Below the pieces are notes generated by a model, which was not told the DNA's origin, did not search any database, and saw nothing but the letters and a program-made list of their open reading frames with translations. A stretch of 42,032 nt of DNA from Chrysochromulina tobinii (taxonomy: Eukaryota): contig JWZX01003315.1 of the NCBI GenBank assembly GCA_001275005.1, forward strand, positions 1 to 42,032. Reading direction: 5' to 3'. Positions 3,117 to 30,013 of this stretch are shown here, one piece after another. Both the position numbers and the translations under genes were made by a program. Numbering within the stretch: position 1 is the stretch's first letter; the number at the start of each line of letters is the position of its first letter.

Positions 3117-5837
3117 TCATGGCTGCATCTCTGGCCACGCACCAGCCCAAGACGATGTTGGCGCGGCGGCGCAAAAGCCGCCAGTGCGCATGACTGGAGG
3201 TGAGGTGGCCTGAGGGGGTGGCACCGGCGGCAGCTTGCTGGGGGAAGACGCTAACTTCGGGGGGGAGGAGGGCGCAAGTTTGGCGGGCCTGCCGAAAAGC
3301 TCTGCGAAGAGATTGGCCGAACTTTTTTCCTCTGCCTCCTCCTGGTCCTCTTCGTCCTCCTCGTCCTCGTCCTCCTCGTCCTGGTACTCTTCCTCCTCTT
3401 CAGACTCGTCGTCCGTCTCGTACCCTGTCGGCTTCATGCCCACTTTGAAGCCCATGTCGATCGGCGTGACGCACCGTGGGCGAAGGACGGTCGGCGTCGT
3501 CGGAAGGCCGAGCAATGGACCGACCCTCGCCGGCAGCCCGCCATCTCCCCCGAGTCGAGGGGTCACCTGTCCCGGCCGAGCGGACGGGGGAAGCTCACGC
3601 GCGAGCTCATCGCGCAGCGCCTCCTTCTCGGCCTCCTTCGACGCCATCGCAAAAGCCGCGGCAAAGGCCGCGGCACCCGCCGGGACCTCATCCTCCTCAT
3701 CCTCTTCGTCGGATGCAACACCCCTAGCAGCCTCGGCCGCAGCCTTCTCGGCAACAGCCTTCTCGGCCTCAGCCTCCTCGGCCGCAGCCGTCTCGGCCGC
3801 CGCCTTCTCGGCCGCCACTGCCTCATCAACTGCTGCCACCGCGACCTCCTCAACTGGATAAACAATGGGAGCCGCCCGCGATGCGGCGCCGAGAGCCACG
3901 GAATTAACGGAACTGGGAACCACCAACACTGCCGCTTTCAGCGCGCGCTGTGAACGCTCCTTGAACCGGACGAGCTCCGACTGCCTCTTCTTCGCCGCAA
4001 ACGTGGCCCACTCGATCTGAATCACAAGGGCGGCGTGAGCCTCACGATGCTCGAGGCGCAGCGCGAGCTTCTGCCGAGCGAGCCCCTGCAAAGTGGACGC
4101 GAGTCGCGAGGCCGAGGTGACCATGCTGAGCCGCTGCCGCTTGAGCTCGGCTCCGCCCTTGCGTTCCTTGGCCGGCGTGATGCACAGAGCACCTCCCTTG
4201 ACGTCGCAGACGGCGGCGACGTGGTGGGGCAAGCCGCGCAGCACGAGCGCGTCGCCCACAAGGAGCTTCATAGCATTGAGTGCGCTTTGATTCTTGACGG
4301 GTACCGTTCGCTTGTTGACGGTCGTGCGCACGACCGTGACCGACTTTGGCAGCGCGAGCTGCCCGACAGTCATGTTATTCACACGCTTGTCGACCGTCGC
4401 AGTCATCTCCAACGCCCCTGTGCTCAGCACTCCCAAGGGAGAGAGAGGGAGAGCTGGCTTGCGCTTCTTCGCCTCCGGCGCCGCACCGAGGTACCGGTTG
4501 ATGCTCGCCGTGTGCGCTTTGCTCGTGGCCGCCTGCGTGGTGTAGCGCAAGCTCAGGCCCGGATGCGAAGTCGCCCACGCGCGCTGCGCCGCCAGGCTCT
4601 CAATCGCATCCTCTGCGGCCGTAGGCTCGAAGCATGCTTTGGTGCAGATTGGCTCGTTGTGTACAGCTGCGAGCAATGCAGCCATCAGCCGCCGCGAGCG
4701 CAGCTTGGCCGCCCGCTGCGTGGCTCGGTGTGCCTCTAGCATCGGCTTCGTCTCGCGGCGCTGCAGCTGGCCACGCCGCACGCACTGCAGTCGGCGTGCA
4801 GCATCATGAATACGCCGCTTGGCCCGTATGCTTTCCATCTTGTGACGCACGACGGGAACAAGAGCCTTCTTGAGAGTTTCGGCCGCGCAGATGAGGGCTT
4901 GGCGCTCCCGTTGGATCTCTTTCGTGATCTTGTCGCGATCGTGCCGCGGAGCGAGCACGAGCTTCTTCGACTTTTCCACCGCCACGGCCGCAAGCTGGTA
5001 TGGCAGGCCTTTGAGGACAAGCTCGTCACCCATCTCCACCTTGGTCGAGGGCAGCGTGCCCACGTTGGTTTTATTGCTCTTGGGACGGCGCACGGCTACG
5101 AGCGTCACGTTGCGTGAGAGCTGCAGCGCCGAGACCGTCGAATGGTCGTGAGCCGCGTCGACTTGCACCACAAGCTCCACCGGCTTCTCATGATAGAGTA
5201 GCTCCGCGGGGGATCTGTTCCAGCCAAATGTCTTGTTTACGCGAATCGCGTACGACGCGGCGGCGAGCCCACGTGCCCTAGGATCCAGCATGCGCAAGAG
5301 GAGCTTGTTGGCCCCGGCCGATACATCCGCCTTGAGAATTGCGTCGCCAACGACTTTCTTGAATGATCCTTCGGACGAGGTAGCTCCTCCAGCACCCTTC
5401 TTGAATGATTCGGCCTCCGTCGGCTTCGATGTCGGCGGCCTTCGCGGCGAAGGCGCCTTTCCTTTTGGCGCCTTTGCTGGCGTGCTTTTGGCCTGCTGCG
5501 ATCCACCCTGCGCAGCCGTGGTTCCACTCGTCGTCGGCGCCTCCCCTTTTCCAGCATTCGCTCCCGTCGGCCGTGCTGGTGCGGCTTCCTCCGTCGGCTT
5601 CGATGTCGGCGGCCTTCGCGGCGAAGGCGCCTTTGCCTTTGGCGCCTTTGCTGGCGAGCTTTTGGCCTGCGATCCACCCTGCGCAGCGGTGCCACTCAGC
5701 GCCTTTCTCCCTGGTGACGCTCGGCCCACCTCATCCTTCTTTGATGGCGTTTGAGGCTTTGCGGGCGACTTGAATCGACTGGGAGCTTTAGCAGGTGAGG
5801 CATTCTGCTCCTTATGCGGCTTTTGTGCCGGCGGCAT
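3117..5837 (-). CDS. About 906-aa protein with Pro/Lys/Ser-rich N-terminus, two TrkA-C (RCK_C)-like modules, IQ-like motifs and acidic tail
   Basis: Likely start MPPAQK at 5837; two similar modules ...TVSALQLSRNVTLVAVRR...GDELVLKGLPYQL and ...TVGQLALPKSVTVV...GDALVLRGLPHHV; AARRLQCVRRGQLQRR. Confidence 0.65.
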   Translation of the reverse strand: MPPAQKPHKEQNASPAKAPSRFKSPAKPQTPSKKDEVGRASPGRKALSGTAAQGGSQAKSSPAKAPKAKAPSPRRPPTSKPTEEAAPARPTGANAGKGEAPTTSGTTAAQGGSQQAKSTPAKAPKGKAPSPRRPPTSKPTEAESFKKGAGGATSSEGSFKKVVGDAILKADVSAGANKLLLRMLDPRARGLAAASYAIRVNKTFGWNRSPAELLYHEKPVELVVQVDAAHDHSTVSALQLSRNVTLVAVRRPKSNKTNVGTLPSTKVEMGDELVLKGLPYQLAAVAVEKSKKLVLAPRHDRDKITKEIQRERQALICAAETLKKALVPVVRHKMESIRAKRRIHDAARRLQCVRRGQLQRRETKPMLEAHRATQRAAKLRSRRLMAALLAAVHNEPICTKACFEPTAAEDAIESLAAQRAWATSHPGLSLRYTTQAATSKAHTASINRYLGAAPEAKKRKPALPLSPLGVLSTGALEMTATVDKRVNNMTVGQLALPKSVTVVRTTVNKRTVPVKNQSALNAMKLLVGDALVLRGLPHHVAAVCDVKGGALCITPAKERKGGAELKRQRLSMVTSASRLASTLQGLARQKLALRLEHREAHAALVIQIEWATFAAKKRQSELVRFKERSQRALKAAVLVVPSSVNSVALGAASRAAPIVYPVEEVAVAAVDEAVAAEKAAAETAAAEEAEAEKAVAEKAAAEAARGVASDEEDEEDEVPAGAAAFAAAFAMASKEAEKEALRDELARELPPSARPGQVTPRLGGDGGLPARVGPLLGLPTTPTVLRPRCVTPIDMGFKVGMKPTGYETDDESEEEEEYQDEEDEDEEDEEDQEEAEEKSSANLFAELFGRPAKLAPSSPPKLASSPSKLPPVPPPQATSPPVMRTGGFCAAAPTSSWAGAWPEMQP
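5411..5690 (-). repeat. Imperfect internal duplication (about 105 bp, two copies) encoding TAAQGGS(Q)QAKS.PAKAPK.KAPSPRRPPTSKPTE
   Basis: Copies at about 5411-5519 and 5585-5690, visible in DNA and protein. Confidence 0.85.
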
Positions 5838-6049: not shown

Positions 6050-8065
6050 ATGCCCGTGACGGCGCCTGCGATGGCGACGACGACGCCGACGGCCACGGCC
6101 ACGGAGACTCACAACTTCGACGTGGTAGTGATAGGAGCAGGCTTTGTGGGCGTCTCAGTCGGCGCCGGCCTCGCAAGCCACGCAGGGGCATGCCGCGACA
6201 ACGACGGCCTGGACCACAGCCGCGTGCAAATCATCGAGCAGGGCCCAGAGTGCGGGGCATTCTGGCTCGGCGGGCACGAGGCGTTGTCGCTGCACAGTCC
6301 GCACCACCGCCTGCCGCACGACGGTGGGCTAGCGTACGACTACCCGATGTTCAAGACTAAGCACGAGGTGCGTGACTACATGAACCGGTATGCCCAGAAC
6401 AAGGGACTCGCACAATGCATGTCCTTTGGCGAGACGGTGCTGCGCATAAGCCACGAGCCCGAAGTCGACAAGGACCGGCCGTGGCGCGTCGCTACTGACA
6501 AGCGCGAACTCCGAGCGCGGCGCGTCGTCGTGGCCACGGGGCTCAACCGGCAGCCCCATATTCCCCACATCCCAGGCAGCGAGGAGCGTGCCGCACACGG
6601 CGCGCGCGCCTTGCGGCATTCGTGGAGCGTGTCGAGCTGCGACGAGTACAAAGGCGAGCGCGTGCTGCTCGTGGGGAGCGGCAACTCCGCGGCCGAACTC
6701 GCCGTGGCGCTGCACCATTCGGGCGCCAAGTCGATCGACATTCTGGTGGACGGGCCGCGCCACTTTGTGAGACGCAGCACGATGGGGCAGATCTTTCGTC
6801 TCTTTCCGTACTTGAGCCTGTCGACGGAGAGCATGGTGCACGATCTGCACCGGTGCACATTTGGCGAGCACACGGCGGATGCCAAGGTGGTCACCGCATG
6901 GGAGCGCTTCCAGGAGGGGCAAGATGAGTTCATAAGGCTTCTTTCCGTCGATCTCGGCCCCTTCGGTATCCAGCGGCCACCGAGCTGGCGGCACGCCGAG
7001 CAGCAGAGCGTCGCTCCTCGCATCCCCGTGTACGACGTGGACCAGCAGCGGTTGCCGCGCTCTGCCGGAGAGGGCGGCATCGTCGGCGGATCCGCAGCAG
7101 TTGGCTACGGCGTCATCGACCTCATTATGAGCGGTGCTGTCGGCATCAAGCGAGGACGCATCCAGCGCTTCACGAGCACCGGCGTCGTCATCGAGGAGGG
7201 GGCCTCGCGTCACGTGACAGCGCGGGCGGGAGCCACCAAAAGTTTGACAGCGGAGGCTGCAACGATGAAGGCGGCGACGGCGGAGGCTGCGACGGCGGAG
7301 GCTGCGACGGCGGAGGCTGCGACGGCGGAGGCTGCGACGACGGCCCCGCCGGGAGGGACGCACCACGCCTACGACGCAGTCATTCTCGCGACCGGCTTTC
7401 GCCACCGCATGGCCGACTTTCTGTGCGCTAAGGACGGGTTGCTTCACACGGCCGCCTCCTTTGGTGCCGCGGACGACGCCGAGGGTGCTCCGATCATCGA
7501 CAGCTGCTCGCGCTCGCGCGTGATCGACTCCATCTACTTTGTGGGCATGGACCAATTCAGGTCGACGGCCTCTCTCGATTGGCCTCCCTGATGACCTCCC
7601 TGATGACCTCTGATTGCCCCCTCTGATTGCCCCCCCCGCTTCAGGTCGACTCTCTCGATTGGCCTCCCTGATGACCTCCTTGATGACCTCTGATTGCCCC
7701 CTCTGATTGCCCCCCCCCGCTTCAGGTCGACTCTCTCGATTGGGCCCGTGCTCGGGTATCGTGGTTACGACGTCGGCGCGGCGATCGCGACCGATTTGTA
7801 CGGTCCGCCCACGAACCCGCTGCGTTTCCCCTCCCTACCGGCCGACGAGCAAGAAGGGAGCAACCCGATCCTGACGCCGAAGCACGCGCTCAAGGTCCTT
7901 GCGGCTGGGGTACTTGTGGGGATAGCTGGCACCCTCGTGATGGGGGCGCTCAAGCGGAAGCCGCGGCCGACAGCTCTGTCAGCCGCCCGAGGCCGCACGG
8001 TCCTCGAGAGCAGGCTAGCCCGCTTCAGCACCGAAGAGCGGCCTCTGACGAAGCCGAGGCCGTAG
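6050..8065 (+). CDS. Class B flavin-containing monooxygenase (FMO/YUCCA-like) with C-terminal membrane anchor; exons 6050-7560 and 7726-8065 (616 aa)
   Basis: FAD motif VIGAGFVG, VVATG, NADPH motif LVGSGNSA, ILATGF; splicing 7561-7725 joins DQFR-STLSIGPVLG in frame; hydrophobic ALKVLAAGVLVGIAGTLVMGAL followed by KRKPR. Confidence 0.85.
7561..7725 (+). other. Spliceosomal intron (165 bp) made of two tandem GT-AG units, 7561-7644 and 7645-7725
   Basis: GT...AG ends, in-frame stop at 7589-7591, removal restores the frame; each unit starts with a copy of the downstream exon start and ends ttcag. Confidence 0.85.
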
Positions 8066-9643: not shown

Positions 9644-11854
<2,211 letters not shown>

Positions 11855-12501: not shown

Positions 12502-15500
12502 TTACGTCGGAGATTGCTCGACCTCGCGCTCGACTTCGTCAACTTCTTCATCGCTCGCGCCGGCCTCGATAAGGAGACGCATGCAATTCAGATGGCCGCG
12601 CAACGAGGCCAGCATGAGAGCCGTGTGGCCGCATGCATCGCGCGCGTCGAGCTCGACATCCTCGGTTCCGAGCAACACGCGCACGATGTCTAGATAGCCC
12701 TCGAAGCTCGCGATATGCAGCGCGTTCTGGTTGCGCCCGTCGCACACACCCACCTTGGCGAGTAGCGATCGGAGGCAATCAGCGGCAATCAGTGGACCAT
12801 TGGAGGCAATCAGAGACCATCAGAGACCATCAGAGACCATCAGAGGCAATCAGAGGTCATCAGAGGCCATCAGAGACCATCAGAGGCAATCAGAGACCAT
12901 CAGAGACCATCCGAGGACAATCAGTGGACCATCCTAAGCCTACCCGGGCGCCGCGCCACACAAGCGCCTGGACGGTCGCAAAGTGGCCCTGCTGGCAAGC
13001 GTGCAGCATGGCCCAGTCCTGCTTGCTCTGGCTGGAACAGCGCCAGATGGGTTGCATGCCACGCACACGCACGCGCTCGGACCCGGGCACGGGATCCTCG
13101 ACGGTACTCGGCCTGTGCACGACCACGTGCGAGAACTGCATCGAGACGACATCAGACGGGTTAGGGTGAGGGTTACCATAGGGTGAGGGTCGAGGCTACC
13201 TGCATCGAGACGACCTCGACGTAGGCGCGCAGGTCGAGTAAGATCGAGGGCAATCAAGGGCAATCAAGGGCAATCAAGGGCGATCAAGAGCAATCACGTT
13301 ACATCAATTATGGGCATTCAACGGAGATCGCACCTGCATCGAGACGACCTCCAGGTAGGCGCGCATGTCGAGGGCGTACGCGTACCATGTGCGCCAGCAC
13401 CGATGGAGCTGCCGGCTAAGTAGGTACCCGACGCCCTGCAAGAACAGCCTCGTCTTGCGGCGACTCAAGCTCCAATAGGCGATCCAGGAGAGCCATGCGC
13501 GTGCGAGATGCCGTCGGCCTATCAGGTGGATCAGCACGCGAGTCATACTGCCGAGCGACTTCCGAAGCTCCATGGCGGTCATGGTGGCGTGCCGCCAGTT
13601 ACCAAAGGCATGCGCGGCGCGCCGCATCGCTAAAAAGGTGACGACCTTGCTCACCTAATGAGGGAGGTCATCAGAGGTCATCAGTGGCCATCAGTAGCAA
13701 TCATTCATCAATTCGAGGGCGACCTCGCGCACCGTCCGCATCGACGCCTTGAGCGCCGACGCGGACTCGACCCAAGCGTTCCAGCCCTTGTGGAGCGGAC
13801 GATGACGGAAGTGGCTCATGCTACTCTGGATGGCTTTGAGCTTGAGCGTGCGCATCTCGTGGTACGCGATCCAAGCTGCGCAGCCACGCGCGAGGTGGCG
13901 GCTCGACAGCTGCCGGATGACGCGCGTCATCAGCGAGCGCAAGCGCTCACTTGCTCGCTTCGTCACGCACAGCGCCTTCCAGCTGCCGAACGCGCGCGCG
14001 CCATGCCGGTTCAAAAAGGAGCCCACGCCCATGCGGACGAGTTGCACCTGATGAGGGAGGTCATCAGAGGTCATCAGGGGCAATCCGCGGCAATCAATCA
14101 TCATCGCGCCCAAATCGCGCCCAGGCGGACGAGTTGCACCATGTGCTCGCGTCCCGAGATCAGATCCACCCAATTGACGAACCCCCTCGCCATATGGAGG
14201 CTCGTCAAGTGCATCAGGCTACGCGTCAACGACGCCCGCAACGACGCGCGCGCCGCGGCGCGCCGTTGGACGTGTGAACGCCAGCTGTGAAACGCCTTGG
14301 ACTGGCCGTGATGGAGTGTGAAGCGCAAGCCTTGGCGCATGAGCGCCGAGAAGGTGCGCGCATGGCCGCCGTACTGCGAGCTCTTGCCCGCCGCCTCGGC
14401 CCAGGAATTCCATCCCTTACCCAGATGCAGGCTGCGCAGCAGCGCGACGGCTCGCGTGACGTGGCGCACGTTGGCCTGACGAGCGTCGACGAAGGCCACC
14501 CAGCCCGCGACGGCACGTGCCTCGCGCTGTCTCCTCAGGACGCGCGCCGTGCGGCCGATGAAGGTGAGCAACTGAAGCTGCCTCGAGCATGCCTCGGCCC
14601 ACGTGCGCAGGGCGCGTGAGAGGCCCCGATGACGCTGGCTGCCCACGACACGTTGGAGTGAGTTGCCCACTTCGCTCTTTCGCCATTCGAACTCGATCCA
14701 GAGGGCCTTCCACACATTGAAGCCGCGCGCGAGGAGGTGGTCGGAGAAGACTCGAACGGCGTCCGTGAATAGAGCCGCGCCGCGCCGGCGCGCCAAGCGC
14801 ACCTTCGTTGCATGCAAGAGGGAGGCAATCAGCATGCAATGGGGAGGCACTCAGCATGCAATGAGGGAGGCACTCAGCATGCAATGAGGGAGGCACTCAG
14901 CATGCAATGAGGGAGGCACTCAGCATGCAATGAGCGCACCTTCGTTGCATGCGCCCACGACGCGAAGCTGCGAGAGAGCGAGTGAGAGGTGAACAAGGCG
15001 ATGCCCTTGCCGAGCAACTCGAGCGCCTCGGCGCGTGTCGCAACCAGCTCAGCCCACGCGTTCCAGCTGCGAGCCATCTGGCGGTGGACGAGATATGCGA
15101 GCATGCGCCGTAGCGACGCGAGCAGTGCTCCCTGCTCCTCGACGCGCTCATGCCACGCATGCCAGCCAAGAGCCATGAGCCGATCGGCCATGCGCCCAAT
15201 CGCGCGACGCGTGGCGATGAATTGGGCGTCGGAGGCGTAGTGGCGTTCGGCCCACGTCGACCAAGCGCGAGCGAGTGCGCTGGAGAGCAAGTGTGCGAGG
15301 GCTCTGCCGACGCGCGCACGCCCCGCCCCGCTGAGTGTGGAGGCCTCCATCCACGTGTTCCACGCGCACGAGAGGGTGCGTGCGCTCAGATGGCTGATCC
15401 CGTGCCTCATTACGTCAGCTGCGTGAGCGTGCGAACGCCAGGTATCGGCCCACGTGTGGTACCCACGTGTCAGGCCGCGCTTGGTGAAGCGGATGAGAAT

Positions 15501-18500
15501 CGCCGACGCCTTCATCAGCTCCGCCCCAATGGCCACCTGCCGCTCCCAGCGAGCGCGCCATACGAGCCAGCCGCGTCCGAGCTCATGCTGACACAAGAAC
15601 GAGAGGACGCGCTTGGCGAGGCGACCACGCGCCGCCCATGCCTCCCAAGCGCGCAGGCCGAGCTTGGCCTTGCGCTCGAAGACGAAGCTGCCCGCCGAGC
15701 GCAGCCTGTGTTTCTCATCCGCCCAGAAGTCAAGGGCGTCCAGCCAGCAGTTCCACGCCCGAGAGATCTGGTGGCCTGTGAGTAGACCGATGGCGCGGCG
15801 CAGTGCCGCGAATGCGTTCTCACGCGCGGAGACGGCGGCGCGCCACGACGACCACCCATACTTGAGCTTGCGCAAGAGCAGGAGGGTGAGCACGCGACGC
15901 ATGGCCGCGAGGCGGTCCGCGCTCTCCCGAGCGGCACAGCATGCGTCTACCCAGCCGCCAAAGCCGCGGCCCATCCGGTGGTGGATCATGTACAAGAGAC
16001 CGCCTCGCAGTGTCTCGCGCATCGCGCCGAGCTCGAGCGCGAACAACGTCCACGTATTCAAAGCTCGTGCGACATGCTGGTGCGAGAGGTACTGCACGAT
16101 GCGTCGAAGTGCGTCGAGCGTACCAGCACGCTCGACGGCGGTCGCGCGCCACGTGTTCCAGCAGCGCGAGAGCGACTGCTGCCTCAGCAGCCGCAGAGCA
16201 TGGCCGGTCAGGGCATCTGCACCGCGCTTGAAATCGCGCTGGAATCGTTGCGATTGCGTCCAGCTCGCAAACGCCCACGCCGCAGCCAGGTGCAGAAAGA
16301 AGCTGGCGGCCCGTTGCACGAGTCGGACGGTCACTGATCGAACGCCACAAACCTCGCGCCACTTGCGCCAGCCTTGCGAGACGCGGAGAGTGATCGCCTT
16401 GCGCACGCCCTGGTGCACCCAGCGCGCGAACTGGCGGCCACGCTCGCGGCACTCAGTCCAGCGAGTCCAGCCACGCACTTTGAGGCAGTTGATCAGGTAG
16501 CGCAGCGCGCACTTCGTCATCTGGCGGCAGGACGCGAGTTTCAGGCACCACCTCGAGAAGCCGACTGCGAGCTTTCGGTTGACCAGGAAGCCTTGCTGTG
16601 GCCAGGCGCTCGAAACCATGTGAATCGGCACCGGCGGCCGCCGGCTCGCACCGAAGAGGCCCGCACGCGACGACGCCACCGAAGAGGCCCGTGATGACAG
16701 GTCCATCGGCGATTGTAGCCACGGCGGCGCGCTACCCCACATCGCACGCGGCGATGCCTTTGAGAGCGGCGGCGTTGTTGCGCCACGAGGCAGCGCACCA
16801 GTGCCACCGGTGGGCATCGTGCAGGCGTTGCTGGGGGGGGGCGTGCCGGCGCGCGACGATGGTGACATGCGTGCCCCCATGTATCCGCCCATCATGACAC
16901 TCGTCTTCAAGTCTCGTGACCCTCGGCTTGAGCTCGGCACCGCTTCGAACGAGGTGGCCATCGAGGCGGCCATAGAAGAGATGATGGAGGCGCTAAAGAC
17001 GGTGGTGAAGGGGGTGGTCTGAACGATGGACATCTGCGACACCGTGGTGTTCTCCTCCTCATCTGCACGCGCGCTGTCGCGCGAACCGCGGCGCGACACT
17101 CCCTCAGACGAGCGCCCCGAGGGCGGTGTGGGCCAGCCGCGCGTTGTCGCCTCCTCCGCCTCGGCCAAGAAGGCAGCTGCCGACGCGGCCAAGGTTGCGT
17201 CTGCTTCGATGCGATCCTTGGCCTCTGAAGCCCTCCGGGCCGCCTCCTCCTCGGCCTTTGCTTTGATTGCCGCTGCTTCCTCCGCCTTCTGAAGCCAAGC
17301 TGCGCGGAGGAGAAAGGCCGCTGCAAGGCGCCCCTTCTCATCCTTCTCCTCCGCCGCCGCCTTCGCTGCCGCGGCTTCGGCGGCGACACGCTCCTCCTCC
17401 TCCGGCAGGGAAGGCGGCAAGGAGTAGGAAGGCAGTCGCTGGGAAATTGGCGACGCCTTTGCTGCCGCTGCTGGAGGGGTACCACTCCCTGCGAGCGGGA
17501 ACGCCGTAACCAAGGCGTCCAATGCAGCCGCAAGCCGTGCGTCCTCCTGCTCCTCCGCCACCCTGACTGCGGCGGCCTCTTTGGCTTTCTCAGCTTTGGA
17601 AGCAGGCTTCTTTTCCATCGCAAGGTGAGCCCTCTCCTCCGCCTCGAGGCCAAGCTTGCGCTTGGCCTGCTGGACGCAACTCTCGAGGAGGGTGCAGAAG
17701 AACGTGTAGAACTCGTCGATCTGGATGAAACCGTCGCCGCTCGAGTCGCTCCGCGCAAAGAGCTCTTCACATCGCTCGTCGCTCGGCATCGCCAGCTCGA
17801 AGCGCTTGCACACCTTGCCCACGCACGCAATCGTCTCGCCCCTGTCGAGCGTGCCGTCGCCGTTGGCGTCTGCAGCGGCGAACTCGGCGTTGCACAGCGC
17901 GCGCCGCACAGGCTCGGTGGACAGAAGGAGGCTTGCCCATTCGACACCCTTGGCTTGTGCCACCTCTCGGAAGGGGAGTGTCGACGACGACGGAGTGCGC
18001 TTGTAGAGGGGCGCGGGCGGCAGCGTGGGCGGCGGCGTCGACAGGGGGGCGGTGCAGAGCGTCGAGGGAGAGGGGAGGGAGAGCGTTGAGAGGCGCTGCA
18101 CCATGCCGACTTCCTCTAGCGGAGTCCAGGAGTGCGCAGATGCCGCCGCCGCTGCTGCCGCCGCTGCCGCTGCCGCTGCGGCCATGCGTGCTTCAGCTGC
18201 CTCGGCCGCTTCCGCCAGGGCTGCTTCGACCTCGGCCTTCGGCTTGAAGTGATCCTCGACGACGGCAAGGTGCATGCGATTAGTAACACGGACGGCACCT
18301 TCACGTGACCGCGCGGCATCCTGTGGGCTTGAGAGCGTCGACGGAGAGGGTGCCGCGTTAGCCGCGAGCGTGGGCGGCAATGGGCGCGACGCCTTATTGG
18401 CATGCGACGGCTTGGTCGCCGCCTCGTCCTCGGACGTCGCCGCCGCGTGTCGCGCGTCGTACTCCGACTTAGCCTTCTTGACGCAAGACTCGAGCACGCA

Positions 18501-18929
18501 CTTGAAGTACCGCTGGTACTCATCAACCTGAATCAGCCCGTCGCCTGACTTATCGCACAGGGCGAAGAGCTGGGCGCACTTGTCGGCGAGCGGCATCGCG
18601 AGATGAAACCGCACGCACATTCGCTCCACGCTCGTGTACGCCTCGATCTTGCCGAGCGTGCCATTGCCGTCAGCGTCCTGCACCTTGAACTCGGCCTCGC
18701 ACAGTCGGCGGCGCTCATCCTTGTCGCTGAGCACGGCCATGGCCCACTGCATGCCCTTGAGCTGCGCCTCATCCTTGGCCACAGCCTCCTTCACAGACGC
18801 CAGGCTGGACTTGAGTTTTTTTATTTCCTTGACCTTAGCAATCGCCCCCAGCTTATCGCCCTTGGTGCGCAAGTGCACGGCCTCAGCCTTTAGAGCCTCG
18901 CACGTGGCCTCGGTCGCGGCGGGCTCCAT
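12502..18929 (-). CDS. About 1910-aa protein: two EF-hand pairs, low-complexity linker, long array of Sfi1-like W-rich repeats, C-terminal ankyrin repeats; exons 18929-14940, 14802-14140, 14047-13733, 13654-13334, 13135-12944, 12753-12502
   Basis: EF loops DADGNGTLGKIE, DKSGDGLIQVDE, DANGDGTLDRGE, DSSGDGFIQIDE; many L.R.W..W repeats; ankyrin NALHIASFEGYLDIVRVLL and TALMLASLRGHLNCMRLLIEAGA; five phase-0 GT-AG introns join six ORF-track pieces in frame. Confidence 0.85.
12754..12943 (-). other. Intron (190 bp) filled with 10-bp tandem repeats (CTGATGGTCT/CTGATTGCCT)
   Basis: GTAGGC...CCAAG; removal joins WRGAR-VGVCDG within an ankyrin repeat. Confidence 0.85.
13136..13333 (-). other. Intron (198 bp) made of two stacked GT-AG units: 13333-13200 and 13199-13136
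   Basis: Both units end in a copy of the upstream exon end GTCGTCTCGATGCAG; removal joins VVSMQ-FSHVV. Confidence 0.85.
13655..13732 (-). other. Intron (78 bp), repeat family core
   Basis: GTGCGC...CCTCCCTCATTAG with in-frame stop; joins ASMRT-VSKVV (an alternative donor 9 nt downstream is also possible). Confidence 0.75.
14048..14139 (-). other. Intron (92 bp), repeat family core
   Basis: GTGCAA...CCTCCCTCATCAG; joins GREHM-VQLVRM in frame. Confidence 0.85.
14803..14939 (-). other. Intron (137 bp) containing about 5 copies of a 23-bp minisatellite CATTGCATGCTGAGTGCCTCCCT
   Basis: Exact 20-bp repeat GCATGCAACGAAG|GTGCGCT spans both junctions; joins HATK-VRLARR. Confidence 0.9.
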
Positions 18930-21515: not shown

Positions 21516-22904
21516 TCAGTCGACTGATGCCCACCGTACGTCGTTCGTGGGGTGGGGTCGAGGCGGCGCATGTAGCTCTACTGAAGGAGGCAGTGCTGTC
21601 GCTCCGCTCTGATCGAAATCGATCAAAAGGCTGCCCTCGTCTACTGAAGGGGGGGGCAGTGCTGCCTCGCTGCTCTCGTCGAAATCGATCAAGAGGCTGC
21701 CCTCGATCTGTTGAAGCAGCTGCCTGCCCTCGAGCCGCCTCCTCGCCTCATGCACACTCAGCACGCCATCCACTGCGATCTCTTCAATGACCTCTGCCGC
21801 CGCAGGAGCATCCGAAGCGGATGATGCCGCCGCCTCCGTCTCTTTATCGGAGGCGGTCGTGCGCAAAGCCGCCTTCGCAGTCGCGATGACGAACTCTCGT
21901 CGTCCTAGCATCGTCACGTTCAATGCTGTAAGCGCGGCCTCGCCCACTGCCGTAATGCGACGTAATCAGTGGCGATCAGTCGCAATCAGTCGCAATCAGA
22001 CGCAATCAGACGCAATCAGACGCAATCAGTGGCAATCACCTGCCGTGCATGCGGCGTGCGAGCACTGCCCCGCCTCGTCGCCCCACTTGTGGCGCACCGC
22101 CGCCTCGACCACCGCGCCGCTCGTCTTACCGATCTCGACCGCGGAATGTTCGAGCTCCTGCCCAATCGTACAGATGGCGGAGATCGAAGCACCGCCGATC
22201 ACCTTAAGTGCCGCGACGGTCGGGGTATCCGGCTGGTTCGTAGCAAGATGCTGAGCTGCTGCCGTGCCGATGGCGCCGGCGACCGCAGCGACGCCCGAGC
22301 CCACCATGCCCGTGAAGCGCAGGGCGGCGTTGGCGACGGTCCGGGTCGTGTTGACTACCTGTATCACCTCGGGAGCCACGAAGGCCTCCCTCTCATCTGG
22401 CTGCACGTGGGTTCGGATCTCGGACAGAGCACACACGAGCCCGTCGGTGATGACGGCGGCGCCGCTTTTGATGCACCGAGCCGCCGCTTGGCCGCCAATC
22501 TGGATCGACATTGCCGCCTCCTCTGCCACCGCTGCCGCAAACAAGCCACCCTCATCGACATCGTTGGAGAGCTCTGACGGCGGAGGCAGACCCAGCATCA
22601 TCGCAAGCCGTTCGCGCGCAGGAAAATCAGAGTGCTCAAAGCGCAGCAATGTGATACCGCCGCCTTGCATGGAGCAGCCCAGCTCAATGCAAGGGACGGT
22701 CCAGAAGATGGCACAACCGTCATCGTCGAGGCTGCGGTCCCACACATCGACGGCTTGGTTGTCAGGTCCATCTGGTGATGGCACGTGTACCAGCCGTCTG
22801 CCTTTCACGATCAGCGATCCCGTGCATTGGACGAAGTGGGTGCCGTCGCCGAGGAGCGCTACGCGAGCGACCGCCTCAAGAATGTGGAATTCGGACGGCA
22901 CCAT
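21516..22904 (-). CDS. Senescence-domain (spartin/ERD7-like) protein; exons 22904-22040 and 21946-21516 (431 aa)
   Basis: Small-residue amphipathic helices and VRHKWGDEAGQ...AVGEAALTALNV, typical of the spartin C-terminal senescence domain; phase-1 intron removal restores the frame. Confidence 0.75.
21947..22039 (-). other. Intron (93 bp) of CTGATTGCGT/CTGATTGCGA 10-bp repeats
   Basis: GTGATT...ACGGCAG; in-frame stop at 22026; ends in a copy of the upstream exon end (CGCAT..ACGGCAG). Confidence 0.85.
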
Positions 22905-25558: not shown

Positions 25559-28357
25559 CTACACCGTAACACGATGAGAGACAGACGAGGGCCGCAACGC
25601 CACCTGCTCCTCAAACACGTAGCACGGCCTTCGGGTGAGAGGCACTCTCGGAGTATGGTGTGAAAGCCGCGGCGCGTGGTGCCCTGGGGAGCCCAGCTTG
25701 ATCCTTGGTCTCCGGCCTATCGGCGGGCCTATCGGCGGGCCCACCGGCGGGCCCACCGGCGAGTGGAGCGGGTGCCCCATCTTAGGGGCCTGCCCCATCG
25801 TCCACACCTCTGCGTCCTCTTGTGGGGTGGGCGCTGCCGGCGTGGATGGCGTCCCTGATTCCATGCTGATTGCATTCCTCATCAGGTGGGCTCCCTCACG
25901 GCGCCGCCGCACGATCGAAAGCAGATCTTCTCGCTCTTGGAGCCAGCTGCTATTGGCCTTCTGCCACAGCTGCCATCTGGCTTCGAGCTCCGTGTGCGCC
26001 CTGTTGCCTTGCCCCAATCTGCTCACCAATCTGCTAGGATGCGACTCGGCGCCCGGTATGGCGCTCGACTTGGCGCTCTGCTCGGCGCTCTTCTCGGCGA
26101 TTCTCGAGAACGCCGAGTTCGCGAACGGGCCGGCGGGCGTGCGAGCTTGTGGATCAGGCCACCGACGCACCGAGATCGGGTCGGAACCAAACAAGGTGAA
26201 GCCATCGGAACAAGGTGGAGCGCGATTCCATCGTCTCGCTAGCGGAGACCCATCGGCTCCAAATAAGACGTCATTATCGTCGCCGAGGGCATGCGACTCC
26301 AAAGACTGCCGTGGCCGCACTCGACCCACTCCTCTGATTGCATGCTGATTGGGTTCCTCATCAGGTGGGCTCCCTGGCCGCACTCGACCCACTCCCGGCT
26401 GCCTCGCTGATGGGCGCGCGGACGACGCGCGTACTGGCTTGAACGGCACGTCGAGCCTCGTGGACAACACCATCTGTGCCACTGTCTGTGCCACTGTCTG
26501 TGCCACTGTTTGTGCCACTGTCATCTCTTTGCCGACCTCTTTCACTGTGTTTGCCAATGCCCTCTCTTCGCCGACCCCTTCAACTGTGTGTGCCACTGTC
26601 TTCGCTTCGCCGACCTCTTCGCGGGGAATGCGATTTCTCCGACTGCGCGGCGTCAGCTTCTCGTCAACCTTCGCGACGACCAAGTCGGGCGGGCTGATGA
26701 ACACGTCATCGCCTCCGGCAGACTCAGGTGCGGGCGTGACGGCTACTCCCTCAATGCGCGGCCACTCCCTCAAAGCCTTCTTGAGCTTCGCTACCACGCC
26801 CGCCTCCTTGAGCTTTGCTGCCGCTCGTGCTGACGACGTGACCCGCGCCTCGATGGCCGCCTTCACCACTCTGGCAACGGCTTCCTCCTTGGCACGTCTG
26901 GCTGCAGCTAGCTCTTCCTGCTTGGCTGCCTCTTCCTTCTCGATCTTGTCCGCAGAGCCCTTTTGCGCCTTTGCCCACGCCGCTTCTTGCGCCACGCGTG
27001 AAGCGTGCAGTTCCTTGAGTGCCTTTGCAATCGCTGCTCGCTTCGTAATCAAGCGATTGCGATTGCGTTGCGCTGCCTTTGCCGCCGCCGCCCGTTGCTC
27101 CTTTTCGGGTAAGAAGGAGGTGGCGGCCAAGAAGGAGAAGAAGGAGAAGCCTTCTCCTTCTCCTTCTTTGCTCGGCTTTCTTGCCCGCCTCCGCTCAGCC
27201 TCCACAGCTTCCTGCCTCCGCTCAGCCTCCACAGCTGCCTGCCTCCGCTCAGCCTTCACAGCTGCCTGCCTCCGCTCAGCCTCCACAGCTGCCTGCCTCC
27301 GCTCAGCCTCCACAGCTGCCTGCCTCCGCTCAGCCTTCACAGCTGCCTGCCTCCGCTCAGCCTCCACAGCTCCCTCAATCATCTCCGCCATCTCCGCCGC
27401 GGCCGCCCGTTGCTCCTTTTCGAACAACGAAAAGGAGACGCCTTTTTCTTGTTTGCTCGGCTTTCTTGCCCGCCTCTGCTCAGCCTCCACAGCTTCCTCA
27501 GTCTTCTCCGCCATCTCCACTGTCGTCACCGCCATCGCCACCGCCTTCTTCGCCACCGGCGCCGCCGTCGCGATCCGCCGGCGGCGCCCCAATCGCCGTC
27601 CCCCTGACTGCGGCTGCCCCCCTGACTGCGGCTGTCCCCCTGTCCCCCTGTCCCCCTGTCCCCCTGTCCCCAATCGCTGTCCCCCTTGGATGACTGCGGC
27701 TGCCTTGCCAGAGCGCATCTGCTCGAGGATGGCTCCGCGCGCATAGCGCAGCGATGCGAGAGCCGTCAATGTGACGCTGATCGAGGCGACGCGCTTGCCA
27801 TGACGATCGAGGACGTCAATGGCCTGGTTTGTCGGCTCGTGCTCACGCTTCAGCAGGTCCTTGAGGTTCACGTGCGCCAGACCGAGCTCCTGCTCATCGT
27901 CGATCGCCGCCGCCATGACGGCGTCGACGGGAGTGCTCAGCCCGGGGGCTGTTACATGTATCACCTCGTCTGGGTGCTCGGCGTTCAGGCCGGCCTTGAG
28001 CACAAAGTACACGTCCGAGTCTTGCTCCTCGACCGAATTGAGCGCCTCGCACATAGGCTCCCACAGCGGCGTCCCCGGCGAAAGGGGCAGTAGCTCGTGC
28101 ACGTCGAGCAACACCGGGTCGAGCGAGGCGGGGCGAAGCCGGCTTGAGCGGAGCCGTACCTCGAGCTCGTGGGCTCGACCAAACGGGTCGATGGATATCC
28201 ACACGTGCTGCTTCGTCTGCTTCAGCTCTCGCAGCAACGGCGGCTCAAGCTGCAGCGTGTGCACCGAAAGCGTGATCGGCCCGGTCGGTGTTCCTTCCCT
28301 GTCGCCCAACTGTTTGGAAGCCTGCTCGGGCTCGTGCTCTGGAGTCAAGCCAACCAT
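25559..28357 (-). CDS. 932-aa protein with N-terminal C2 domain (RPGRIP1 C-terminal-type), IQ-like motif, coiled coil and disordered tail
   Basis: ITLSVHTLQL...VWISID...VYFVL...ELGLAHVNLKDLL...IDVLD...VASISVTLTALASL C2 strand pattern; AAAVIQ; AERRQAAVE repeats. Confidence 0.6.
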   Translation of the reverse strand: MVGLTPEHEPEQASKQLGDREGTPTGPITLSVHTLQLEPPLLRELKQTKQHVWISIDPFGRAHELEVRLRSSRLRPASLDPVLLDVHELLPLSPGTPLWEPMCEALNSVEEQDSDVYFVLKAGLNAEHPDEVIHVTAPGLSTPVDAVMAAAIDDEQELGLAHVNLKDLLKREHEPTNQAIDVLDRHGKRVASISVTLTALASLRYARGAILEQMRSGKAAAVIQGGQRLGTGGQGDRGTGGQPQSGGQPQSGGRRLGRRRRIATAAPVAKKAVAMAVTTVEMAEKTEEAVEAEQRRARKPSKQEKGVSFSLFEKEQRAAAAEMAEMIEGAVEAERRQAAVKAERRQAAVEAERRQAAVEAERRQAAVKAERRQAAVEAERRQEAVEAERRRARKPSKEGEGEGFSFFSFLAATSFLPEKEQRAAAAKAAQRNRNRLITKRAAIAKALKELHASRVAQEAAWAKAQKGSADKIEKEEAAKQEELAAARRAKEEAVARVVKAAIEARVTSSARAAAKLKEAGVVAKLKKALREWPRIEGVAVTPAPESAGGDDVFISPPDLVVAKVDEKLTPRSRRNRIPREEVGEAKTVAHTVEGVGEERALANTVKEVGKEMTVAQTVAQTVAQTVAQMVLSTRLDVPFKPVRASSARPSARQPGVGRVRPGSPPDEEPNQHAIRGVGRVRPRQSLESHALGDDNDVLFGADGSPLARRWNRAPPCSDGFTLFGSDPISVRRWPDPQARTPAGPFANSAFSRIAEKSAEQSAKSSAIPGAESHPSRLVSRLGQGNRAHTELEARWQLWQKANSSWLQEREDLLSIVRRRREGAHLMRNAISMESGTPSTPAAPTPQEDAEVWTMGQAPKMGHPLHSPVGPPVGPPIGPPIGRRPRIKLGSPGHHAPRLSHHTPRVPLTRRPCYVFEEQVALRPSSVSHRVTV
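27190..27370 (-). repeat. 27-bp coding minisatellite (about 6 copies, AERRQAAV[E/K])
   Basis: ccgctcagcctYcacagctgcctgcct tandem array. Confidence 0.9.
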
Positions 28358-28754
28358 TCGGCCAGCAGTTTCTGTTCGATCTGATCGTCAATTCGGACGC
28401 GGTTGTTCAAGGTCATGAAGGAAATGCATGCGGAAACCAACACTCAAGATTCCAAATTAGTCACATCGAGAACACAACAGTACACGGCCTTCGTACGCAT
28501 GCTTCGCTGGCATAACTGATGTCATCTCTCACGCGCTCAGAAGGCGTTGACGATCGTCACGGCTGGTCATGTCGCACAGACGAGCAGAAGAGAGAAGTGC
28601 TACCTTCACCACTACACGGTGCGCGCGCGGACCCGTCATCTCATCTGTGCGCAGGGTGAAACTGCTGCCCAAGGACCTTGCCTATAGAGTCATCTGGGGT
28701 ATCATCTGGAGAATGGTTGACTGGATGACTGCCGTCCGATGATGGTGTCCAGAG

Positions 28755-30013
28755 TCATGCTGGGGACCACTCCGGGACGGCCCCTTCACCTGGAGCATGG
28801 TTGACTGCCGTCCGATGACGTCGCCCGTGCGGGGATGGGCTGGACCCAAATACCGGTAAGTCACGGATGGGCTCAACCGGGGTCGTGACAGAGTCATCTG
28901 GGGCAGGGCTGACCGCCGTCCGATTACGTCCCGCGAAGCGGCTTGCGGGGGCTTGCCTGCTTGGAGAGAACGCGGAGGTAGAGCTTTTGATGGCAGAGAG
29001 GGCGGAGGTGGAGGCGGAGCGTAAGGGGGCTAATACAATTGAGGCGGATCGTCTGATGGTCTGCAAAGTTTCCGAGGCTGAGTGGCTGAGTCTGACGAGA
29101 GCCGTGCCCGTCTTCTCTCGCTCCGCCTCCGCCTTCTCTGCCGCCACACGCTCCGCCTCCGCCTTCTCTGCCGCCAGACGCTCCGCCTCCGCCTCCGCTC
29201 TTGCCGCTGCCGCTCGCTTCGCCTCAAGCTTTTCAAATTGGCCGCGACGTACCCGCCTGCCGCGCGCGGCCGCCTGGAGCCGGACGGTGGAGGCTCGGCG
29301 GCTGACCCAGCGAGTTGCTGCCCGCTGCACGATATTGATCGCCTTTCCAGAGCGCATCTGCTCGACGATGGCGGCAAGCCGCCGCCTACGGATGGCCTCG
29401 TCAAGCGCCCCGTCGGCGACGGGATTGGGATCGTGCGCGCGCAGATTGGCTAGCACTGCCGTCGCGTAGCTTGCGAGAGTCTCATTGTTTGACGAGAGGA
29501 GCGGCTCGAGGTCGGTCATGAGGCCTCGGCTTCGAAGAGTTTGGCAAAGAGCGTCCGGGTCCAGGGACGTGGCATTCTGGAGCACCGCACACACATACAG
29601 TTGAATGCCCCGCTCGTCTCGCCGGAGCGCACCCTGTAGCGAATCGAGACCATCATGCTCAATGAAAGCTGCGAGCGACAGATCAGCCTCTGGGTCGAAG
29701 ACGTCCGTCGAACAGGTTGCCGACGAGTGCCAACGCGCCCTGGGGGGAGCTCATCACTCTTTGTAGGATCCCCATCATATGTGTTGATGCAGGCGATTAG
29801 CGCGCGTATGCCGCCGCTCTCACGCACTGCCGCAGCGAGGGCGGCAGCATCAGCGCCGTACGAGTTGTCAGCCACACTGTTGAGCTGATCGAGTGCATCG
29901 CTTCGCGTGTCATCGCTGATGGAGTGAACGAGACTGGCGACGAGGACATTGGCTCGAGCGCGGGTCGCCTCAGCCACCCGCTCCGCGCGAGCGCTAAACG
30001 GCGTCGTGGCCAT
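28755..30013 (-). pseudogene. ARM-repeat/IQ-motif protein gene interrupted by apparent frameshifts near 29742-29747 and 29710 (pseudogene or assembly error)
   Basis: ORF 30013 frame gives AVRESGGIRALIACI; a +1 shift gives QGALALVGNLF; a second +1 shift gives TDVFDPEA...QLYVCAVLQNAT in frame with ORF 28755..29594 (YATAVLANL; IQ motifs VQRAATRW, LQAAARGRRVR). Confidence 0.6.

What the first reader, a model, noticed from the sequence alone, without database searches (positions are those of the whole stretch)
14796..14952. Clean AG|GT target duplication: exact 20-bp repeat around a 23-bp minisatellite
Seen: GCATGCAACGAAG|GTGCGCT occurs exactly at both junctions, so both splice sites come from one duplicated proto-splice site. 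The filler (CATTGCATGCTGAGTGCCTCCCT, about 5 copies) shares GCATGC with the target and CTGA.TGCCTCCCTCA with the family core. Inference: a very young intron whose filler is a hybrid of target and family sequence, as expected from iterative template switching.
Basis: partly seen in the sequence, partly recalled or inferred. Interest (0 to 1): 0.7.

Follow-up and report, generated by a model that had tools for sequence, protein, structure and literature searches.

The report
Satellite-filled new intron in an alga
A gene of a freshwater alga (Chrysochromulina) carries a 137-base intron that its sister lineage lacks, made of a repeat found at many other places in the genome and bracketed by two copies of the gene's own 20 bases, likely the scar of a DNA break patched with copied repeat DNA, a route to new introns that would need no transposon.

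Summary
There is an exact 20-bp repeat (14796-14815 / 14933-14952) around five 23-bp units. Removing 137 nt restores a minus-strand gene, and AG|GT is the only canonical register. One RNA contig shows this joint. The host is in the Chrysochromulina parva/tobinii group.

A sister lineage (89.6% amino-acid identity) has the empty site in 12 of 12 sequences. All 10 of 10 same-lineage proteins carry the insert, and alleles have 1, 3 or 5 units. So the intron is a lineage-specific gain, but apparently fixed.

The 'hybrid filler' idea fails. GCATGC belongs to a repeat unit found at many other loci, so the match to the target is a 6-7-nt junction microhomology, not borrowed sequence. Most family introns in the window have flank copies of variable length (7-32 nt).

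Best reading (0.55): staggered-break repair copied a splice-signal-bearing satellite from elsewhere. The main rival is reverse-transcriptase insertion (0.22). It fails published introner criteria, and a 2025 screen lists 0 families for C. tobinii. The scan met a similar repeat-flanked intron earlier in this genome (e1-2577349).

The parts
14803..14939 (-). Spliceosomal intron, 137 nt, phase 0, GT...AAG
   Evidence: ORF restored; one RNA contig skips 137 nt with CT..AC ends; site empty in sister lineage
14933..14952 (-). Upstream copy of the 20-nt repeat: last 13 nt of the exon plus first 7 nt of the intron (supplies the GT donor)
14796..14815 (-). Downstream copy of the 20-nt repeat: last 13 nt of the intron (supplies the AAG acceptor) plus first 7 nt of the next exon
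14816..14932 (-). 117-nt filler: five 23-nt units of a multi-locus repeat family plus 4 nt; 3 units in L003 and L004, 1 unit implied by P0016
   Evidence: family abundance
14809..14815 (-). GCATGC(A): 6-7 nt that fit both the target and the family unit or terminus (junction microhomology); not needed for splicing
   Evidence: chance about 0.002 (6 nt) to 0.0006 (7 nt) per junction
14828..14832 (-). Branch-point-like CTGAT, A 27 nt from the intron end, followed by a pyrimidine run; the first AG after it is the acceptor (inferred; L003 has no such motif and L004 has it only 74 nt from the end)
   Evidence: YTRAY consensus recalled
12502..18929 (-). Host gene, 1,910 codons when five phase-0 introns are removed; EF-hands at the N-terminus, Trp-periodic helical repeats (Sfi1-like label is recalled, no Pfam match), ankyrin repeats at the C-terminus; all five introns are repeat-filled
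14048..14139 (-). Neighbouring family intron, 16-nt exact (about 25 nt with 2 mismatches) copy of the downstream exon; shared with the sister lineage
13136..13333 (-). Neighbouring double insertion: family filler, then telomere-like filler, each followed by a copy of the upstream exon (about 32 and 15-18 nt)
   Evidence: one RNA contig joins 13135 to 13334
26312..26395 (+). Control locus: 21-nt duplication around 42 nt of the same family (contains GCATGC; its flanks do not), antisense to its gene, 63 nt and in frame

Best explanation
This is a spliceosomal intron gained in one Chrysochromulina lineage, likely when a staggered DNA break at an exonic AG|GT was repaired by copying in a piece of an abundant repeat from elsewhere in the genome. 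Shown: the insertion is absent from the sister lineage; 11-20 nt of target are duplicated; the filler belongs to a multi-locus family; the junctions overlap family and target by 6-7 nt and 2-3 nt; unit number varies between alleles. Inferred steps: (1) staggered break ends are filled in, which duplicates the target; (2) a break end primes on another family copy, is extended, and is joined where GCATGC(A) matches (microhomology-mediated, polymerase-theta-like templated insertion); (3) the product survives because the duplicated AG|GT gives donor and acceptor and the unit supplies spacing, a branch-like CTGAT and a pyrimidine run, so splicing restores the mRNA exactly; (4) the unit then changes copy number by slippage or unequal exchange. 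Each new intron would be a new template, so the family could spread with no transposase.
For: Empty site: 12 of 12 sister proteins reaching the site read straight through. They are unspliced genomic ORFs, since they end inside the next intron. RNA joint 14795 to 14933, CT..AC, in one contig. Family origin of the filler: in DNA run X12 the flanks have depth 37 and the array up to 30,242 from 230 contigs (summed depth, a rough measure); other loci end in ATTGCATGCAG|G, TTGCAG|GT or CATCAG|GT (table 7). 8 of 9 protein hits carry the unit in unrelated flanks. Variable geometry: among 8 introns in the window the flank copy is upstream (7, 15-18, 29 nt), downstream (13, 24 nt), on both sides (focal 13+7; 7561 locus 5+6 exact) or decayed (1 of 8). 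Four of 8 exact totals (11, 15, 16, 20) exceed the maximum of 8 in 56 cross-pairings. Fillers are heterogeneous, including telomere-like DNA. An antisense insertion survives as an in-frame 63-mer. In sister alleles, 3 of 4 distinct short in-frame lesions in about 1,550 aa lie at this empty site. Staggered-break repeats at new introns are described in Daphnia (PMC4202315). Templated insertions in POLQ-dependent repair: PMC2943611 abstract. Tandem duplications at staggered breaks: PMC8355091 passages.
Against: No whole genome was available, so the family survey rests on one 42-kb window, contig piles and protein hits, and no exact donor copy was identified. Variable duplications and junction microhomology also fit reverse-transcriptase insertion (established knowledge, recalled). 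Shared termini (GTGCGATCTCC at two donors; CATCAGGTGGGCTCCCT at two loci) look element-like. Only 4 of 8 introns have exact duplications above the cross-pair null. Microhomology free of splice-site constraint rests on this one junction, and 40 of 263 AGGT sites have a 6-nt match to the unit within 30 nt upstream. The sister lesions include slippage-type changes in Arg codons, and only in-frame changes are visible in proteins. The splicing evidence is one contig at depth 2.1 in 1 of 3 RNA runs, and an empty-allele DNA molecule would look the same. POLQ in the host was not tested.
Confidence: 0.55

Rival explanations
1. SINE-like or other reverse-transcriptase-driven insertion: family RNA (pre-mRNA or intron) is copied at a nicked target, giving variable target duplications, truncation at microhomology and slipped tandem units.
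For: Variable duplication lengths; recurring termini across loci; family sequence is present in RNA libraries; nearly all insertions seen are sense to their gene.
Against: Both donor-carrying and acceptor-carrying fillers, a telomere-like filler and an antisense copy occur. The focal filler has neither family terminus intact. No poly(A) tail. Duplications reach 29-32 nt. Sense bias is also expected from selection for splicing. No autonomous element could be sought.
Confidence: 0.22
2. Two steps: first an in-frame 21-nt exon duplication, later invaded by the repeat through recombination at the CTC/GCATGC junction, which turned it into an intron.
For: The sister codon after Val-Arg is Ser, as in the 5' copy, which would make the duplication 21 nt; small in-frame indels are tolerated here in sister alleles.
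Against: No duplication-only allele among 22 proteins covering the site; duplication plus filler co-occur at many loci.
Confidence: 0.08
3. Classical DNA-transposon introner (MITE-like) with a target-site duplication holding AG|GT, later degenerated into a minisatellite.
For: Introners recruiting both splice sites from an AGGH duplication exist (Polarella class 14, bioRxiv 10.1101/2020.10.14.339549). Marine Chrysochromulina MAGs have introners with 4-bp TSDs (PMC9860276).
Against: Duplication length is not fixed; the filler has no terminal inverted repeats (the fold does not pair the ends); no constant element boundaries; C. tobinii is listed with 0 families.
Confidence: 0.06
4. One reading: the unit was built on the spot by iterative template switching between the target and a family core, so GCATGC is borrowed from the flank.
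For: GCATGC is in the target, is self-complementary and is in phase with the units.
Against: The same unit with GCATGC sits at unrelated loci, e.g. an 80-nt match with 2 differences in another contig, window 26337 and 8 of 9 protein hits. The focal 8-nt share is reached by 14% of random windows; no flank borrowing in 5 of 7 other fillers.
Confidence: 0.05
5. Old intron lost in the sister lineage, with the array expanding later in this lineage.
For: No outgroup closer than about 25% identity was found, so polarity is not proven; the lesions at the empty site could be loss scars.
Against: An exact 20-nt exon copy inside an old intron would decay; both copies carry this lineage's Thr-Lys codons where the sister has Met/Ile-Glu; 8 of 12 sister alleles have no indel or multi-residue swap at the site.
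Confidence: 0.04

Closest known systems
[quoted passage not shown]
   Same: Insertion with a direct repeat of adjacent exon sequence, an empty allele or lineage, internal repeats, serial insertions at one site.
   Different: Repeats here reach 20-32 nt against 4-12 bp in Daphnia. The filler comes again and again from one abundant repeat family (that Daphnia fillers mostly lack a genomic source is recalled, not checked).
Tandem genomic duplication model (duplicated AGGT gives both splice sites; PMC3443670, passages read)
   Same: Both splice sites come from one duplicated exonic AG|GT, and the mRNA is unchanged.
   Different: Only 20 of 137 intron bases are duplicated exon; 117 are foreign filler, without which the intron would likely be too short to splice.
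Introners / introner-like elements (PMC9860276, PMC12130899; Polarella class 13/14 and Florenciella, which co-opt both sites)
   Same: Related sequence creates introns in many unrelated genes; splice sites are co-opted from the target; phase-0 bias (5 of 5 introns in this gene).
   Different: No fixed TSD length (3-9 bp in described families), no TIRs, no constant boundaries, and the similarity is satellite-driven, a class the 2025 screen removed by hand. Emiliania fam24 is noted there with 10-bp terminal direct repeats, the nearest listed case.
Polymerase-theta / SD-MMEJ templated insertions and small tandem duplications (PMC2943611 abstract; PMC8355091 passages)
   Same: Short duplication at a staggered break, templated filler, junction microhomology of a few bases.
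   Different: Studied in animal cells at induced breaks, with flank-derived templates in the SD-MMEJ model (recalled beyond the abstract); here the template would be a dispersed repeat, and the enzymes are untested.

Membership tests
Spliceosomal (U2-type) intron | GT...AG ends whose removal restores the reading frame | tested here: met
Spliceosomal (U2-type) intron | Removed from RNA | tested here: inconclusive
   One RNA contig skips exactly 137 nt with CT..AC ends; contigs cannot exclude empty-allele DNA. DNA run X12 shows no such joint.
Introner (criteria of PMC12130899) | Related introns in at least 4 unrelated genes | tested here: met
   (family level; the 23-nt unit is at many loci)
Introner (criteria of PMC12130899) | Similarity reaches the intron boundaries, with consistent boundaries across copies | tested here: not met
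   Both ends of this intron are target copies; family introns in the window differ at both ends (criteria)
Introner (criteria of PMC12130899) | Similarity not driven mainly by simple repeats or satellites | tested here: not met
   The filler is a 23-nt tandem array; other members are 10-nt arrays
DNA-transposon (TIR/MITE) introner | Fixed-length TSD and terminal inverted repeats | tested here: not met
   Duplications of 7-32 nt on either side; no end-to-end pairing
Tandem genomic duplication intron | Duplicated exonic AGGT provides both splice sites | tested here: met
Tandem genomic duplication intron | Intron body is duplicated host-gene sequence | tested here: not met
   117 of 137 nt are family repeat
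Break-repair (DSBR) intron gain | Direct repeat of adjacent exon at the insertion borders and an empty orthologous site | tested here: met
Break-repair (DSBR) intron gain | Junction microhomology beyond chance | tested here: inconclusive
   6-7 nt at one junction (p about 0.002-0.0006), 2-3 nt at the other (p 0.17-0.06); one locus only
Break-repair (DSBR) intron gain | Dependence on end-joining enzymes (POLQ, Ku) | not testable with these tools
   no host genome; needs induced breaks
SINE / non-LTR retro-insertion | One constant end with nested truncations, and a tail | tested here: inconclusive
   Recurring termini exist but in several forms and on both intron sides; no poly(A)
SINE / non-LTR retro-insertion | Autonomous RT element sharing the end sequence | not testable with these tools
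   no host genome

The most novel reading that the evidence does not exclude
Freshwater Chrysochromulina gains a large part of its introns by a transposon-free, self-feeding process: break repair duplicates 10-30 bases of exon and patches the gap with copies of a dispersed satellite that is itself a portable branch-point / pyrimidine-tract / acceptor cassette. Selection keeps spliceable or in-frame products, and each new intron becomes a template. Introner screens miss this by design.
Probability: 0.4. Interest if true: 0.8.

Novelty: new variant of a known kind. Interest (0 to 1): 0.5.

Why it matters
[quoted passage not shown] This locus has an empty sister site, an RNA joint, allele-length variation and a microhomology that splicing does not require. 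It is therefore a clean test case in a cultured, sequenced alga where the introner screen reports none. If the pattern holds genome-wide, it is a family-scale route to intron gain that current pipelines filter out. As a single locus it is one more repeat-flanked intron gain.

Tried and rejected
No host genome was held, so no genome-wide catalogue was possible.

Motif scans found nothing useful. Viral contigs gave 0, 0, 0 and 2 hits; the 2 show no family array. Genome contigs gave 2 single bacterial hits, taken as chance and not examined further.

The one metagenome scan returned 4 loci. L001 and L002 are 99.985% identical to the window and not independent; L003 and L004 are about 97-98% identical. 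No sister-lineage DNA was obtained, so the empty site is known from protein only.

Rows dropped before counting: 2 of 12 listed same-lineage proteins and 3 of 15 listed sister proteins do not reach the site; 10 of 25 sister members were not listed. Long frame-shifted stretches in P0018, P0025 and P0030 were left out of the lesion count. P0199 is an unrelated hit among the 9. The one-unit allele rests on one protein (P0016) and may be a collapsed assembly.

RNA runs X15 and X20 do not bridge the site. For X16 and X18 the joint table was cut.

The filler folds better than shuffles (z -2.8), but this comes from the palindromic TGCATGC in each unit and I draw nothing from it. A 12-bp palindrome lies 3 nt from the repeat, but the window has 23 of them.

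Pfam and the protein atlas did not name the Trp-repeat region. The Emiliania genome paper was not held.

Paper searches showed no description of this family in their listings. The C. tobinii genome paper mentions 'intron' once. Subscription papers, files 13-14 of the PMC12130899 supplement, the cut end of the PMC9860276 supplement and the bioRxiv supplements were not seen and may bear on novelty.

Full report
Observation. The exact 20-nt repeat is at 14796-14815 and 14933-14952, 137 nt apart, around a 23-nt array. The gene is on the minus strand. Removing 137 nt opens a 786-codon frame. The repeat holds a single AG|GT, giving a phase-0 intron at 14803-14939 with an AAG acceptor. Simulated windows hold no such repeats, but the real window holds 38 non-tandem pairs of 12 nt or more against 1.8 expected. 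The feature is real and belongs to a pattern.

Host. A protein cluster of a neighbouring gene includes a protein labelled Chrysochromulina parva, and a second gene matches a C. parva model at 98%. The host is therefore in the freshwater parva/tobinii group. The interrupted gene encodes 1,910 residues with five phase-0 introns, EF-hands, Trp-periodic repeats and ankyrins. All five introns are repeat-filled.

Splicing. One contig from RNA run X17 joins 14795 to 14933 with CT..AC ends, 56 and 95 nt on the two sides, with 0 and 2 differences. DNA run X12 shows no such joint. This is 1 of 3 RNA runs in that call and cannot exclude empty-allele DNA. A branch-like CTGAT lies 27 nt from the acceptor in the window allele, but not in L003, and only 74 nt away in L004.

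Gain and age. Homologues fall into a same-lineage cluster and a sister cluster at 89.6% identity. All 12 of 12 sister proteins reaching the site read through it; these are genomic ORFs because they stop inside the next intron. All 10 of 10 same-lineage proteins reaching the site run into the insert. L003 and L004 have three units (93 nt), the window has five, and P0016 implies one. The intron post-dates the split but appears fixed. An exact repeat does not prove extreme youth, since the next intron keeps an exact 16-nt repeat and is shared with the sister. No close outgroup was found, so gain is inferred from the duplication.

Source of the filler. In X12, which may be the window's own culture, the flanks have depth 37 while the array collects 230 contigs and summed depth up to 30,242. 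Other long contigs match 75-90 nt of the array, one with 2 differences in 80 nt. Loose ends show other loci ending in ATTGCATGCAG|G (low-agreement consensus of 6 contigs), TTGCAG|GT or CATCAG|GT. A protein search with the array's translation gave 9 hits, 8 with the unit in unrelated flanks. Inside the window, 26337 carries GCATGCTGATTG and a copy near 25865 carries CATGCTGATTG, with no such word in the 26312 duplication. So GCATGC is family sequence. Its match to the target is a 6-7-nt overlap at the junction (chance about 0.002-0.0006); the other junction overlaps by 2-3 nt. The target-only part of the duplication may be as short as 11 nt.

The family in the window. Eight introns were compared. 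Flank copies lie upstream, downstream or on both sides and run from 7 to about 32 nt; one is decayed. Four of 8 exact totals exceed the cross-pair maximum. Fillers include 10-nt arrays, the 23-nt array and telomere-like DNA. At 26312-26395 a family piece lies antisense in a coding exon as an in-frame 63-mer, also present in 9 of 9 sister proteins examined, as expected if insertions occur either way round and selection filters them. In sister alleles, 3 of 4 distinct short in-frame lesions lie at the empty focal site. This hints at a fragile site, but Arg-codon slippage could explain two of the three.

Mechanism. I favour staggered-break repair with a templated insert from another family copy, joined at microhomology, kept because the duplicated AG|GT makes it spliceable, and later changed in unit number (0.55). 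The anatomy is shown; the break, the template jump and the enzymes are inferred. RT-driven insertion (0.22) predicts similar junctions and is helped by recurring termini, but fits less well with fillers of both polarities, telomere-like filler and duplications near 30 nt. Two-step origin (0.08), DNA-transposon introner (0.06), local hybrid filler (0.05) and loss in the sister (0.04) are weaker.

Comparison. Taking both splice sites from one duplicated AG|GT is known from the tandem-duplication model (PMC3443670, passages) and from Polarella class 13/14 introners with 4-nt TSDs (bioRxiv 10.1101/2020.10.14.339549, parts 1-2 of 4). Break-repair gains with 4-12-bp repeats are known in Daphnia (PMC4202315, passages). 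Marine Chrysochromulina MAGs have introners with 4-bp TSDs (PMC9860276, passages and supplement rows). The 2025 survey lists 0 families for C. tobinii and removed satellite-driven families by hand (PMC12130899, passages and supplement rows). This insertion works like an introner at family level but fails two of that survey's criteria. My paper searches showed no description of the family, within the library's limits.

Verdict. Observation confirmed; interpretation partly supported. A new variant of a known kind, interest 0.5. The value lies in the family-wide process, for which this locus is an unusually informative example.

Noticed in passing
window 13136-13333 (-): Two successive insertions at one site, the second with telomere-like CCCTAA/CCCTCA filler, each followed by a copy of the upstream exon; one RNA contig removes both as one 198-nt intron.
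   Followed up: partly
window 7561-7725 (+): A whole family intron with its flank copy is duplicated head to tail (period 80) in a flavin-monooxygenase-like gene; both splice sites lie in the duplicated TTCAG|GTCGAC.
   Followed up: partly
window 26312-26395 and about 25855-25895: Two family pieces sharing CATCAGGTGGGCTCCCT lie antisense and in frame in the 25562-28387 (-) ORF, so intron-type repeat has become coding sequence; sister proteins have a further in-frame duplication plus insert next to the second.
   Followed up: partly
sister proteins P0002, P0023, P0024, P0030 at the site matching window 14780-14802: Three distinct in-frame lesions (one extra Arg, a 3-residue deletion seen twice, a 4-residue swap) at the empty site, against one elsewhere in about 1,550 aa.
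   Followed up: partly
window 14781-14792: Perfect 12-bp palindrome 3 nt from the repeat; one of 23 in the window, so weak.
   Followed up: yes
window 33220-33295 (-): Family intron in a tubulin-tyrosine-ligase-like gene with a 29-nt copy (1 mismatch) of the upstream exon; same donor-side start GTGCGATCTCC as the 13333 insertion.
   Followed up: partly
window 9644-11854 (-): Single ORF fusing an S-formylglutathione-hydrolase-type esterase with a class-3 alcohol dehydrogenase; widespread in algae and other protists.
   Followed up: partly
window 5414-5691, 21613-21705, 28686-28903, 37673-37759, 41160-41382: Further short local duplications (17-114 nt) without the family filler; the genome seems rich in tandem duplications in general.
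   Followed up: no
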